A stretch of 9,055 bases of DNA from IMG/VR virus record IMGVR_UViG_3300028956_000044; one strand, given 5' to 3'. Both the position numbers and the translations under genes were made by a program. The notes beneath the pieces are model-generated. The model ran no database searches and was not told where the DNA came from. It worked only from the letters and a program-made list of their open reading frames with translations. The DNA comes from a virus. Lineage: Duplodnaviria; Heunggongvirae; Uroviricota; Caudoviricetes. The stretch's first letter is position 1. Each line of letters starts with the position of its first letter. This document shows positions 2,258-3,831 of this stretch, piece after piece.

Positions 2258-2317
2258 CATCATCAATGAGTTATCTTTTACCACATCAATCATGTTAGCC
2301 ATAACATACAAAATCAC

Positions 2318-2346
2318 TTGACCTATATGTTAGCCATGGCTAATCT
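2318..2346 (+). promoter_or_regulatory. putative DicA-repressed promoter of the rightward dicB operon, with operator palindrome TTAGCCATGGCTAA (2330-2343)
   Basis: TTGACC (2318-2323), 17-nt spacer, TAATCT (2341-2346; weak -10). A perfect 14-bp palindrome at 2330-2343 overlaps the spacer and -10, and a partial copy ATGTTAGCCAT lies at 2292-2302. Exact -10 assignment is uncertain. Confidence 0.5.
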
Positions 2347-2427
2347 TATTTACATCAACACACCGCACGGTGTTCTCAGCAAACAGTTCCGCTACCCCAG
2401 CGTTAAGGGGAAACAGAGGATTTCTCA

Positions 2428-2784
2428 GTGGGCGAAGTCAAACATCAGAATGGAAGGCGTCCAGGGATCAGCAAAGAAACAGCGATGGCGCTTTATATTG
2501 ATATCAGCGCCATTGCCGGACAGGTAAGAATTATCAGAGCGGTAACTAAGCGGTATGCGCCTTTACTTCAGAAAGTCTCTGGTGAGTGCACCGAAGATAT
2601 TGTCAACGATTTCGTCATCAAACTGCGAGGACTCATCTTCAGTTACAAGGTGACCACAATTTTTGCAGATGGCTCCCGCGAAACTGTCAGAGCCCTGCGG
2701 TTTAAAGGATGTGTCAAAGACTTCGCCACCACATTCTGGGCAAGAAAACTTGATTGTATTCATAACCAATTTCCTCTCGAGTAA
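2428..2784 (+). CDS. 118-aa ORF at the position of ydfA/ydfB in the dicB operon
   Basis: GTG start 7 nt after AGAGGA (2415-2420); first gene after the putative operon promoter. In K-12 I recall two small genes here (ydfA 51 aa, ydfB 42 aa); this window has one continuous frame. Its 3' two-thirds overlaps an antisense zinc-ribbon ORF, so the true extent is uncertain. Confidence 0.45.
   Translation: MGEVKHQNGRRPGISKETAMALYIDISAIAGQVRIIRAVTKRYAPLLQKVSGECTEDIVNDFVIKLRGLIFSYKVTTIFADGSRETVRALRFKGCVKDFATTFWARKLDCIHNQFPLE
2563..2763 (-). CDS. 66-aa Cys4 zinc-ribbon small protein, antisense to the ydfA/ydfB-equivalent region
   Basis: Minus-strand ORF MNTIKFSCPECGGEVFDTSFKPQGSDSFAGAICKNCGHLVTEDESSQFDDEIVDNIFGALTRDFLK with ATG at complement of 2761-2763, preceded by GAGAGG (complement of 2774-2779). 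Shows CPEC-x17-CKNC, a canonical zinc-ribbon spacing, followed by an acidic tail. Could still be a chance antisense frame. Confidence 0.35.
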   Translation of the reverse strand: MNTIKFSCPECGGEVFDTSFKPQGSDSFAGAICKNCGHLVTEDESSQFDDEIVDNIFGALTRDFLK

Positions 2785-2855
2785 CAGACCCCTCAGAGGA
2801 TACCACCTCGCCTGACGTGGTTAAAAGCAGGCAACGCTAACCACAAGGAGCCGAC

Positions 2856-3074
2856 ATGCAGAAACGAGAACCCGTCATCATCGCGCCAGACTATACCGAT
2901 GATGAACTTTATGAGTGGATGCGCCAGAAAATTAATGCAGCGCAGGATTTGAAATGGGCCAATGAAGCCAGGGCTAAGCAGGCTGAAAATCTGTCCGCTC
3001 TGGAGCAGGATATCACCAGGCTGGAAAAAGCAGCGGCATTAAGCATTGCCAGAATGATTACATACCCGCGTTAA
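2856..3074 (+). CDS. ydfC: YdfC-like small protein (72 aa), dicB operon
   Basis: ATG 5 nt after AAGGAG (2842-2847). The 72-aa length and position, about 340 bp upstream of DicF, match K-12 ydfC as I recall it; the protein sequence itself was not recognised. Confidence 0.6.
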   Translation: MQKREPVIIAPDYTDDELYEWMRQKINAAQDLKWANEARAKQAENLSALEQDITRLEKAAALSIARMITYPR

Positions 3075-3215
3075 TAGATAACCAACGAAGCTAAGGTTGG
3101 TAATTAAGGAGTTCTCCACGGGTGAGGTGGAGTGCGTGCGCCGGACACGGGTGAGCATCCGGCACTGACAGTTTACTGAAAGGATATTTCCCTGAAAAGT
3201 CAGACCATAACGCGA

Positions 3216-3280
3216 AAGCGCACGGCGAGGTAGCTGGTTCATAGATAGCCTGTCGTTAAATTTTCGTCGACCGTGCGCTT
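3216..3280 (+). other. RNA stem candidate: perfect 10-bp inverted repeat AAGCGCACGG / CCGTGCGCTT with 45-nt loop
   Basis: Read directly: 3216-3225 is the reverse complement of 3271-3280. Lies in the ORF-free ydfC-dicF spacer. Confidence 0.4.
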
Positions 3281-3353
3281 CCGGTTGTGGCAATCAGCGA
3301 AATGGCGCGGCGGTAAGTATGGCGGGGTTATTCCTTCCCCCGTTGAGGACACC

Positions 3354-3390
3354 GGGTTGTCAGGTTGACCATACGCTTAAGTGACAACCC
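3354..3390 (+). other. RNA stem candidate: perfect 9-bp inverted repeat GGGTTGTCA / TGACAACCC with 19-nt loop, 26 nt upstream of DicF
   Basis: Read directly: 3354-3362 is the reverse complement of 3382-3390. Confidence 0.4.
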
Positions 3391-3415
3391 CACTGCAACG
3401 CCCTCTGTTATCAAT

Positions 3416-3473
3416 TTTCTGGTGACGTTTGGCGGTATCAGTTTTACTCCGTGACTGCTCTGCCGCCCTTTTT
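3416..3473 (+). ncRNA. dicF: DicF small regulatory RNA (ftsZ-targeting sRNA of Qin-type prophages)
   Basis: The 53 nt at 3416-3468 match, to my recollection base for base, the E. coli DicF sequence. They end in a GC-rich hairpin plus a TTTTT run at 3469-3473. Position between ydfC and dicB is syntenic with K-12 Qin. Confidence 0.85.
3431..3473 (+). terminator. intrinsic terminator forming the DicF 3' end
   Basis: GGCGG (3431-3435) pairs with CCGCC (3463-3467), with an inner CAG/CTG pair, followed by CTTTTT. Confidence 0.75.
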
Positions 3474-3481
3474 AAAGTGAA

Positions 3482-3621
3482 TTTTGTGATGCGGTGAATG
3501 CGGCTAAGCGCACGCGGAACAGTTAAAACCAAAAACAGTGTTATGGGTGGATTCTCTGTATCCGGCGTTAATTGTTAACTGGTTAACGTCACCTGGAGGC
3601 ACCAGGCACCGCATCACAAAA
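3482..3621 (+). other. perfect 15-bp long-range inverted repeat bracketing the dicF-dicB spacer
   Basis: 3482-3496 TTTTGTGATGCGGTG is the exact reverse complement of 3607-3621 CACCGCATCACAAAA. Arm A starts 9 nt after the DicF T-run; arm B ends 21 nt before the dicB ATG. Confidence 0.5.
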
Positions 3622-3642
3622 CTCATTGTTGAGGGCGCGATA

Positions 3643-3831
3643 ATGAAAACGTTATTACCAAACGTTAATACGTCTGAAGGTTGTTTTGAAATTGGTGTCA
3701 CTATCAGTAATCCTGTATTTACTGAAGATGCCATTAACAAAAGAAAACACGAACGGGAGTTATTAAATAAAGTATGCATTGTTTCAATGCTGGCCCGTTT
3801 ACGTCTGATGCCAAAAGGATGTGCACAATGA
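3643..3831 (+). CDS. dicB: cell-division inhibitor DicB (62 aa)
   Basis: ATG at 3643 preceded by GAGGG (3631-3635). The 62-aa product MKTLLPNVNTSEGCFEIGVTISNPVF matches my recollection of DicB, and it sits about 170 nt downstream of DicF as in K-12. The track's 97-aa version is an in-frame GTG extension with no RBS. Confidence 0.85.
   Translation: MKTLLPNVNTSEGCFEIGVTISNPVFTEDAINKRKHERELLNKVCIVSMLARLRLMPKGCAQ

What the first reader, a model, noticed from the sequence alone, without database searches (positions are those of the whole stretch)
3075..3415. ~340-nt ORF-free, highly structured region between ydfC and DicF
No credible ORF (longest ATG frame about 21 codons, no RBS), yet several perfect inverted repeats: ACCAAC/GTTGGT (3081-3101), GCCGGA/TCCGGC (3139-3162), a 10-bp pair at 3216-3280 and a 9-bp pair at 3354-3390. 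This fits an RNA processing platform that releases DicF from the operon transcript. It may also hold an additional processed RNA species.
Basis: partly seen in the sequence, partly recalled or inferred. Interest (0 to 1): 0.5.

Follow-up and report, generated by a model that had tools for sequence, protein, structure and literature searches.

The report
Conserved leader RNA of DicF precursor

Summary
Window 3075-3415 is non-coding, and the 10-bp and 9-bp inverted repeats exceed chance (2 observed, 0.07 expected). The two 6-bp repeats do not.

The processing interpretation is right but already published. In E. coli K-12, RNase III makes a 190-nt "long DicF" and RNase E then releases the 53-nt DicF (PMC10448788, citing Faubladier 1990). 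Counting 190 nt back from the DicF 3' end gives about 3280.

- It has four helices, three of them with compensatory changes, plus a candidate pseudoknot.
- It has no Rfam match.
- It is not detectably related to HK022 put RNA, tested with covariance models in both directions.
- It occurs once per locus in lambdoid prophages and in P1/P7.
- In all 76 distinct downstream flanks examined it sits 40-95 nt before a hairpin and U-tract, with 11 classes of downstream sequence (variable-seed sRNA candidates).

E is therefore the constant 5' module of a mobile sRNA cassette. Its function is not shown. I favour a precursor (pro-sRNA) domain. A put-like terminator bypass is the main rival.

The parts
3081..3101 (+). 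Hairpin ACCAAC/GTTGGT with a 9-nt loop, just after the ydfC stop codon
   Evidence: Present. A 6-bp stem is at chance level. A mosaic breakpoint at about 3095 cuts through it in many homologues.
3114..3132 (+).
   Evidence: 6-bp inverted repeat that forms in the minimum-free-energy fold. Homologues show loop changes and one uncompensated change.
3140..3163 (+). Hairpin GCCGGA/UCCGGC
   Evidence: The arms are conserved and the loop varies (CACGGGUGAGCA versus CACGGAUAAGAA). No compensatory change was seen.
3190..3205 (+). Degenerate copy of the small hairpin CCCUGA-AAAG-UCAGGG. Here the 3' arm reads UCAGAC.
   Evidence: Alignment. Most homologues have CCCUGA/UCAGGG and two have CUCUGA/UCAGAG (a compensated change). 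The window and a few others have a broken 3' arm.
3213..3283 (+). Probable RNase III substrate giving the 5' end of the 190-nt long DicF at about 3280.
   Evidence: (pair I2, 92% complementary) and the fold. The 190-nt species and its RNase III dependence come from PMC10448788. The position is my inference from the length. The interior (3229-3266) varies in sequence and length among homologues, and the arms carry several uncompensated mismatches.
3293..3408 (+). Conserved RNA domain E, core 3295-3390.
- P0: 3295-3299 / 3306-3310.
- P1: 3311-3314 / 3351-3354.
- P2: 3323-3327 / 3338-3342, a variable hairpin.
- P3: 3354-3362 / 3382-3390, plus inner pairs 3363-3365 / 3375-3377.
- Candidate pseudoknot: 3317-3322 with 3369-3374.
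   Evidence: Covariance model R1 scores 129.5 bits here and finds 89 hits, one per locus. 97% of cells are paired and 6 pairs show changes on both sides, a count reached by 0 of 500 shuffles. By eye, P2 stems appear in at least 5 compensated versions. The pseudoknot is 99.3% paired, with U-A changing to C-G in the P1 clade. The frequent G-U pairs I read as pointing to the + strand. No Rfam hit at E-value up to 10.
3391..3416 (+). C-rich, G-poor linker (CCACUGCAACGCCCUCUGUUAUCAAU) ending at the RNase E-made 5' end of DicF (3416/3417)
   Evidence: The DicF model starts at 3417. RNase E dependence is from the literature. GC skew is negative only in this part of the leader. The motif CCCCRCYRCAAC is conserved in the lambdoid copies but not in P1/P7.
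3417..3469 (+). DicF sRNA with its intrinsic terminator (context, outside the finding)
   Evidence: Rfam RF00039, 76.7 bits, E = 5e-16.
3478..3625 (+). Downstream long hairpin with 19-nt arms (3478-3496 / 3607-3625). Probable RNase III site giving the 72-nt DicF 3' end (context).
   Evidence: pair I1, 95% complementary. The 72-nt RNase III product is from the literature. It encloses a sub-threshold STnc100 match (38.8 bits, gathering score 47).

Best explanation
The 340 nt are the untranslated leader of the DicF precursor in the early-left (dicB) operon of a Qin-like prophage. The leader is a mosaic of hairpin modules, and two of them matter.

1. The long hairpin 3213-3283 is the double-stranded entry site where RNase III separates the ydfC mRNA from the sRNA part. 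This creates the 5' end, at about 3280, of the known 190-nt 'long DicF'.

2. The next ~100 nt (E, 3293-3408) fold into a compact four-helix domain, probably pseudoknotted, that forms the body of that 190-nt RNA. RNase E then cuts in the single-stranded C/U-rich linker just 3' of E (3416/3417) to release the 53-nt DicF.

E is the constant 5' module of a mobile cassette made of E, a variable seed and a terminator. That cassette is shared by lambdoid prophages and P1-like phages.

My inference is that E works in cis as a pro-sRNA domain. It would fold fast and independently of whichever seed follows it. It would give a stable precursor with a structured 5' end. It would leave the linker and seed exposed so that RNase E cuts at a defined place.

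Shown by others: the 190-nt and 53-nt species and their dependence on RNase III and RNase E.
Shown here: the conserved fold of E, its distribution, and its invariable pairing with a downstream terminator-ended sRNA.
Inferred: the exact RNase III site, and the role of E.
For: Literature: the 190-nt DicF is lost in an rnc deletion strain and accumulates in rne-ts. The 53-nt form needs RNase E. The primer used to map the 190-nt 5' end anneals to 3365-3386, inside E.

Geometry: 3469 minus 190 gives about 3280. That is the base of the 13-bp stem. It lies within 4 nt of the 5' edge (3284) of the block shared with cdtI-type phages.

E is real:
- R1 scores 129.5 bits in the window and finds 89 single-copy hits.
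- 6 pairs carry double changes, against a mean of 1.9 in shuffles, with 0 of 500 shuffles reaching the observed count.
- The pseudoknot pair changes from U-A to C-G in the P1 clade.
- P2 stems are rewritten with compensation while loop length varies.

Cassette: all 76 distinct downstream flanks have a hairpin plus U-tract 40-95 nt after E, and they fall into 11 sRNA classes. All 22 phage records that hold DicF appear to hold E as well. I confirmed this with the model for Tritos and saw 19 of the others in the displayed hit lists for the E region. mEp460 and Aeromonas phage AP1 were not checked.

In P1 the promoter-to-terminator unit (about 180 nt) has the same size and layout as the 190-nt RNA made by processing in Qin.
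Against: Nothing shows that E is needed for either cleavage. RNase E sites are normally set by local sequence (my knowledge of the field, not tested here). A 100-nt domain with invariant loops therefore seems more than a processing guide should need.

The arms of the RNase III stem show uncompensated mismatches and no double changes in homologues.

P1/P7, and by eye cdtI-type phages, carry E without that upstream stem. The stem is therefore an add-on and not part of the conserved unit.

Genes that need the same promoter lie beyond the terminator: exo, xis and int here, and tRNAs and ban in P1. The pro-sRNA reading does not explain how they are reached.
Confidence: 0.45

Rival explanations
1. 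E is a cis-acting RNA that acts on the transcribing RNA polymerase or on the terminator that follows it. It would be a put-like, protein-independent antiterminator or attenuator. Part of the transcription would then pass the sRNA terminator and reach dicB, exo, xis and int (in P1: the tRNAs, tciABC and ban). The flanking RNase III stems and the RNase E site would then excise the sRNA from read-through transcripts.
For: - E always lies between a repressor-controlled early promoter and an intrinsic terminator.
- In P1 it starts about 35 nt after the Pban start site and is followed by a strong hairpin closed by a UUCG tetraloop, then six U. The tRNA genes and ban downstream have no other annotated promoter.
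- In the window and in phage Tritos, exo, xis and int lie beyond the DicF terminator.
- No N-type protein or boxA is present. All the small ORFs fall in PHROGs families of unknown function.
- Because E is shared by P1 and lambdoid phages, I infer a host partner.
- A conserved RNase III hairpin right after the terminator, together with the published 72-nt species, implies that read-through transcripts are common.
- Precedent: HK022 put, and HK639, where only a putL-like RNA was seen in the stretch examined.
Against: - No sequence or structure relation to put in either direction.
- The terminator does work in K-12: the 53-nt and 190-nt RNAs end there.
- A competing pairing of the E 5' strand with the terminator 3' arm appears in the minimum-free-energy fold. 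It is not kept where the terminator changes, in L030 and P1.
- There are no functional data.
Confidence: 0.3
2. The 190-nt RNA is itself the functional product. E would be a second, trans-acting domain, for example a protein-binding or sponge module, or a second seed in the pyrimidine-rich P2 loop (UUCCUU / CUCC, anti-Shine-Dalgarno-like).
For: The 190-nt species is reported as stable and abundant in stationary phase. P2 loops differ in sequence but by eye keep a UCC/CUCC core. In P1 the unit would be a primary transcript of about 180 nt.
Against: No target or partner is known. The P2 loop motif is short and was not tested statistically. The best-conserved parts are the junction and the P3 loop, which the pseudoknot explains.
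Confidence: 0.1
3. The region is only a structured, G-rich spacer, a recombination mosaic left between genes. It would have no specific function beyond avoiding Rho loading on a long untranslated RNA.
For: Breakpoints at about 3095, 3117, 3135, 3195 and 3284 show module shuffling. GC skew is positive over most of the leader, which makes a poor rut site. The upstream hairpins lack covariation.
Against: The E core stays nearly invariant between P1 and lambdoid phages (about 76% overall identity). Its flanks and the P2 hairpin have diverged or been replaced, with compensated stems.
Confidence: 0.08
4. The region encodes a small protein: the phrog_8854-like frame 3273-3368, or the 84-aa frame on the - strand that some phage records annotate.
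For: phrog_8854 matches the translation of 3273-3368 with E = 6e-19. Several phage records annotate a 'hypothetical protein' over this DNA.
Against: The annotated frames lie on different strands and in different positions from phage to phage. A 1-nt indel separates near-identical copies inside the frame. Indels in homologues are not multiples of three. The frame here starts with GTG and, by eye, has no ribosome-binding site. No Pfam match.
Confidence: 0.02

Closest known systems
The 190-nt 'long DicF' precursor of E. coli K-12 Qin (Faubladier et al. 1990; Ragunathan et al. 2023, PMC10448788)
   Same: It is the same locus. The K-12 spacer is 96.8% identical to the window, and E is found there with 136 bits. 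The RNase III-made 5' end, the RNase E-made DicF 5' end and the terminator 3' end all apply.
   Different: In the papers I could read, the 5' part is treated only as precursor sequence. They do not describe a conserved fold, a pseudoknot, presence in P1/P7, or the link to other sRNA seeds. Faubladier and Bouche 1994 and the P1 genome paper could not be read here and may hold part of this.
HK022/HK639 put (polymerase-utilisation) antiterminator RNAs
   Same: Both are cis-acting, multi-helix RNAs of 70-100 nt. Both lie downstream of a repressor-controlled early promoter, and the E-bearing phages lack N. A hairpin plus U-run follows closely, seen by eye in the HK022 sequence. Both contain a pseudoknot-type element.
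   Different: There is no detectable homology. The put model finds putL (95.9 bits), HK639 putL (89.8) and putR (45.3) but nothing in E, and the E model finds nothing in HK022. E has a different helix layout. Only short local resemblances exist (CGAAAUGGCGCG versus CGAACGGCGCG; CGGGUUGUCAGGUUGAC versus CGGGUUCAGGAUGAAC). No activity has been tested.
sRNAs derived from 3' UTRs or from inside operons and matured by RNase E (for example MicL, CpxQ, SroC)
   Same: The sRNA shares its terminator with, or sits inside, an mRNA. Its 5' end is made by RNase E next to stem-loops.
   Different: To my knowledge those cases have no large conserved leader domain shared by unrelated seeds and no upstream RNase III step.
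P1/P7 C4 and P4 CI immunity RNAs
   Same: They are phage regulatory RNAs cut out of the leader of the operon they belong to (established knowledge).
   Different: They are processed by RNase P, the mature RNA is the structured part, and Rfam's C4 family does not match here. In E cassettes the known mature product is the part downstream of the structure.
Lambda-type nut sites (boxA + boxB with N)
   Same: Position in the early-left transcript. Homologues carry a small hairpin CCCUGAAAAGUCAGGG that shares CCCUGAAAA with lambda boxB as I recall that sequence.
   Different: There is no boxA on the + strand between the promoter region and dicB. There is no N-like protein. The hairpin is degenerate in the window and absent from cdtI-type and P1 copies.

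Membership tests
DicF precursor leader (RNase III / RNase E processed) | Lies directly 5' of a bona fide DicF in the dicB-type operon | tested here: met
   RF00039 at 3417-3468, 76.7 bits. The gene order dicC, dicA, ydfC, dicF, dicB, ydfD, exo, xis, int comes from the annotated homologue.
DicF precursor leader (RNase III / RNase E processed) | A double-stranded segment where the 190-nt 5' end is expected | tested here: met
   13-nt arms at 3213-3225 / 3271-3283, 92% complementary. 3469 minus 190 gives about 3280.
DicF precursor leader (RNase III / RNase E processed) | [quoted passage not shown] | not testable with these tools
   Reported for K-12. This is not measured for this strain, whose spacer is 96.8% identical.
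HK022 put RNA family | Match to a covariance model of known put RNAs | tested here: not met
   Model R2 was built from 7 put sequences. It recovers putL, HK639 putL and putR but gives no hit in E of the window, P1, P7, cdtI, pPE4 or F1055 at E-value up to 10 with filters off. The reverse search with R1 on HK022 is also negative.
HK022 put RNA family | Located downstream of an early promoter and upstream of terminators in a phage without N | tested here: met
HK022 put RNA family | Suppresses termination in cis, dependent on the RNA polymerase beta' zinc-binding domain | not testable with these tools
   Needs reporter and in vitro transcription assays.
Any Rfam 15 family (riboswitches, ribozymes, C4, IsrK and others) | Covariance-model match in 3075-3415 | tested here: not met
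   cmscan of 2800-3700 at E-value up to 10 returns only DicF, a sub-threshold STnc100 (3480-3620) and a chance tsr32 hit. ARAGORN finds no tRNA or tmRNA.
Lambda-type nut site | boxA (YGCUCUUUA) followed by a boxB hairpin, with an N protein encoded nearby | tested here: not met
   No boxA-like match on the + strand between 2258 and 3640. The small ORFs all fall in PHROGs families of unknown function.
RfaH ops element | GGCGGTAGNNTG | tested here: not met
   0 matches with up to 1 mismatch. E has GGCGGTAAGTATG, which fits only if one base is deleted.
Protein-coding gene | Frame preserved among homologues; family match | tested here: not met
   Frame-breaking indels. No Pfam match. The phrog_8854 hit is explained by translation of conserved non-coding DNA.

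The most novel reading that the evidence does not exclude
E is a new class of protein-independent RNA that controls transcription termination. It would be functionally like put but unrelated to it in sequence. It would make terminator-ended sRNA genes non-polar inside phage early operons. It would serve as the early antitermination device of N-less Qin/Tritos-type lambdoid phages and of the P1 ban operon.
Probability: 0.3. Interest if true: 0.8.

Novelty: new variant of a known kind. Interest (0 to 1): 0.5.

Why it matters
DicF is a textbook prophage sRNA, and its processing pathway is known. The 5' two-thirds of its stable 190-nt precursor, however, turn out to be a conserved, structured module. 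That module travels with at least 11 different sRNA seeds and occurs in about 80% of complete E. coli genomes (4289 of 5426 match the spacer), as well as in P1-like phage-plasmids.

If E only aids maturation, it defines a reusable pro-sRNA cassette, which would help in predicting phage sRNAs and in engineering. If it lets RNA polymerase pass the terminator, it would be a second family of antiterminator RNAs. It would also explain how N-less lambdoid phages and the P1 ban operon express genes that lie behind a strong terminator.

Tried and rejected
- Rfam at its gathering thresholds and at E-value up to 10 gave nothing in the spacer.
- put homology was rejected by covariance models in both directions. 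The short local resemblances to put were judged not significant.
- An antiterminator made by pairing of the E 5' strand (GCGGCGG) with the terminator 3' arm (CUGCCGC) appears in the minimum-free-energy fold of the 190-nt RNA. I rejected it. E stays unchanged where the terminator base changes to GGUGG/CCACC (L030) or is unrelated (P1).
- The alternative helix 3324-3336 / 3379-3391 (pair I3) was rejected because P2 sequences vary while 3388-3391 does not.
- A local mini-hairpin GUCA-GGU-UGAC, resembling the tip of put stem II, was rejected. In P1/P7 the U-to-C change is compensated in the distal arm and not in the local one.
- boxA and ops are absent.
- Coding potential was rejected.
- A resemblance of E to 5S rRNA segments (GCGCGGYGGU, AAGUGAMAAC) was judged to be chance by a rough count. 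Rfam's 5S model does not hit.
- The genome-contig scan with a 15-base pattern was wasted. Nearly all of the 120 returned loci were chance matches, and only E. albertii was real. The host range beyond Escherichia, Shigella, Salmonella and Klebsiella records is therefore not established.
- Faubladier and Bouche 1994 and the P1 genome paper could not be read.
- Mutual-information scanning of the E alignment is confounded by the split between P1 and lambdoid copies. I did not use it beyond the pseudoknot pair.

Full report
**Context**

The window is the left arm of a Qin-like lambdoid prophage inserted next to rspB. The gene order is dicC (-), dicA (+), a variable segment, ydfC (2856-3074), the spacer, dicF, dicB (3643-3831), ydfD, exonuclease, xis and int. 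DicF is confirmed at 3417-3468 (RF00039, 76.7 bits). Everything from dicA onward is on the + strand. This is the PL-type early operon controlled by the repressor DicA (established knowledge).

**The observation**

The spacer 3075-3415 holds no credible gene.
- The longest ATG frame on the + strand is 21 codons.
- The frames tested, including an 84-aa frame on the - strand, have no Pfam match.
- The one PHROGs match (phrog_8854 to 3273-3368) is best read as a family built from translated non-coding DNA. Near-identical copies differ by a single C in that frame. Annotated ORFs over this DNA lie on different strands in different phages.

All four inverted repeats exist.
- Two perfect repeats of at least 9 bp are found where 0.07 are expected. 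Only 1 of 500 shuffles reached that.
- 6-bp repeats are not enriched: 7 against 3.6 expected.
- Folding energy alone is weak evidence. The z-score is -2.0, and -3.1 on the opposite strand.

**What is already known**

K-12 work reports a 190-nt DicF species whose 5' end depends on RNase III. It is absent in an rnc deletion strain and accumulates when RNase E is inactivated. The 53-nt DicF depends on RNase E. A 72-nt form gets its 3' end from RNase III on read-through RNA (PMC10448788; PMC5069750 and PMC9438474; all cite Faubladier 1990).

The K-12 spacer is 96.8% identical to the window. Counting 190 nt back from the DicF 3' end (3469) gives about 3280. I could not read the exact mapped base, because the figure marks it only by a coloured letter.

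A second long stem lies right after the terminator (3478-3496 / 3607-3625). It is well placed to give the 72-nt 3' end.

**The spacer is a mosaic**

BLAST blocks start at about 3095, 3117, 3135, 3195 and 3284.
- The first reported hairpin straddles the 3095 breakpoint.
- GCCGGA/UCCGGC is conserved without covariation.
- The arms of the RNase III stem carry several uncompensated changes, and its interior varies in length and sequence.
- Homologues also carry a small hairpin CCCUGAAAAGUCAGGG, compensated to CUCUGA/UCAGAG in two of them. It is degenerate in the window at 3190-3205.

**The conserved domain E**

The block from 3284 to about 3408 is shared with phages that have no other similarity in this area: cdtI, Stx2c phages, Ayreon, 2H10, Salmonella F1055, a record named Actinobacillus phage pPE4, and P1, P7, SJ46 and RCS47. 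It also occurs in 511 plasmid records, mostly P1-like and all from Escherichia, Salmonella, Klebsiella and Shigella.

In P1 it overlaps the feature annotated 'dicF-like region' and starts about 35 nt after the C1-controlled Pban start site. In cdtI, pPE4 and F1055 it follows the repressor gene at the head of the early-left operon.

I aligned 20 representatives, proposed a structure and built model R1.
- R1 scores 129.5 bits in the window.
- It finds exactly one copy in each of 89 loci.
- It finds E in K-12, in phage Tritos and in a Stx2c phage, and nothing in the put phages.

On the 76 distinct sequences, 97% of cells pair. Six pairs carry changes on both sides, and 0 of 500 shuffles reached that count. 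Versions with the 3' partners slid by 1-3 columns pair at 34-56%. That alignment was fitted to the model, which favours the structure.

Independent of the model, the P2 hairpin appears by eye as CGGGG/CCCCG, CUGGG/CCCAG, CUGGGG/CUCCAG, CCAGGUG/CACCUG and CAGGGG/CUCCUG, with loops of different length. P1 shows U-A changing to C-G in P7. P0 never covaries and is imperfect in the window.

The invariant junction GUAUGG (3317-3322) is complementary to CCAUAC (3369-3374) in the P3 loop. This pairing holds in 99.3% of cells. It changes from U-A to C-G in the P1 clade and to U.G in three other sequences. With one covarying pair it is a candidate pseudoknot only.

I read the many G-U pairs as placing the RNA on the + strand.

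**E is not a known family**

Rfam gives nothing at E-value up to 10. Because of its position, I tested HK022 put closely.
- R1 finds nothing at putL or putR with filters off.
- A put model built from seven put RNAs recovers putL (95.9 bits), HK639 putL (89.8) and putR (45.3). It gives no hit in E of six phages or the window.
- boxA and ops are absent.

**E travels with sRNAs**

All 76 distinct downstream flanks have a hairpin plus U-tract 40-95 nt after E. They fall into 11 sequence classes. DicF is one of them, and the others differ in the seed and in the terminator stem. All 22 phage records with DicF appear to carry E too. I confirmed Tritos with the model, and 19 others appear in the hit lists for the E region. 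mEp460 and AP1 were not checked.

In P1 the unit from promoter to terminator is about 180 nt. That is the same layout and size as the 190-nt RNA that Qin makes by RNase III cleavage. The conserved unit is therefore E, a linker and seed, and a terminator. The upstream RNase III hairpin is an adaptor used when the unit sits behind coding genes.

**How it works**

Shown by others: RNase III and RNase E convert the operon transcript into the 190-nt and 53-nt RNAs. Shown here: the body of the 190-nt RNA is a conserved fold.

My preferred reading (confidence 0.45) is that E is a pro-sRNA domain. Its compact, self-contained fold would give a stable precursor and leave the C-rich linker (negative GC skew only there) open for RNase E.

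The main rival (0.3) is that E acts on transcription.
- In the window and in Tritos, exo, xis and int lie behind the DicF terminator.
- In P1 the tRNAs and ban, with no other annotated promoter, lie behind a strong terminator closed by a UUCG tetraloop.
- These phages show no N-like protein.
- The conserved RNase III hairpin after the terminator suggests that read-through RNA is common.

Against the rival, the terminator clearly functions in K-12, E is unrelated to put, and a simple competing-helix mechanism fails the covariation check. The two readings are not exclusive.

Less likely readings are a trans-acting role for the 5' domain (0.1), a mere structured spacer (0.08) and a coding function (0.02).

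**Verdict**

The finding is real, and its interpretation is right but already published. The added value is the definition of E: a structured RNA motif absent from Rfam and from the papers I could read, conserved from lambdoid prophages to P1, and forming the constant head of a family of phage sRNA cassettes. Its function is open and can be tested directly.

Noticed in passing
window 3478-3496 / 3607-3625: A 19-nt inverted repeat (95% complementary) right after the DicF terminator encloses a sub-threshold STnc100-like match (3480-3620, 38.8 bits, gathering score 47). It is probably the RNase III site behind the published 72-nt DicF. Its 5' arm (AAAGTGAATTTTGTGATGCGGTG) is conserved after most lambdoid sRNA variants.
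   Followed up: partly
window 2258-2855: Between dicA and ydfC the window lacks the ydfA and ydfB genes of K-12. It carries different DNA with a 68-aa zinc-ribbon-like ORF on the opposite strand (2563-2769, phrog_4852, E = 5.5e-10).
   Followed up: partly
window 3273-3368 (+): PHROGs family phrog_8854 (unknown function) matches the translation of the 5' half of the conserved RNA domain (E = 6e-19). It is probably a spurious protein family called on conserved non-coding DNA.
   Followed up: partly
L003 2590-2770 (record PP818812, 'Actinobacillus phage pPE4'): The sRNA-plus-terminator unit after E is tandemly duplicated in this record. Its early region (dicA, kil, exoVIII) looks like that of an E. 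coli phage, so the host label may be doubtful.
   Followed up: no
window 3190-3205 and homologues: A small hairpin CCCUGA-AAAG-UCAGGG shares the 9-mer CCCUGAAAA with lambda boxB as I recall that sequence. It is compensated to CUCUGA/UCAGAG in two homologues and degenerate in the window. No boxA or N gene accompanies it.
   Followed up: partly
L130 4662-4800 (IMG/VR contig, P7-like): This copy of E has an insertion of about 25 nt, including a G-run, inside the P2 hairpin. It still scores 88.8 bits, which shows that P2 tolerates large insertions.
   Followed up: no
window 3298-3309 and 3353-3369, compared with HK022 putL (L004 6240-6313, - strand): Two short colinear resemblances to put RNA (CGAAAUGGCGCG versus CGAACGGCGCG; CGGGUUGUCAGGUUGAC versus CGGGUUCAGGAUGAAC). 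The covariance models do not pick them up, so they may be chance.
   Followed up: partly
phage record MT713136.1 (Aeromonas phage AP1, 254 kb), 249906-249980: This record holds a DicF copy 98.7% identical to the E. coli one. That is unexpected for a jumbo Aeromonas phage and may reflect an assembly chimera or contamination.
   Followed up: no
window 3404-3425: The RNase E cleavage site lies in the loop of a small predicted hairpin (GUUAUCA / UGGUGAC) that includes the first bases of DicF. By eye, the DicF-like variant UAUCAC...GGUGAU can form a similar hairpin in a shifted register.
   Followed up: no
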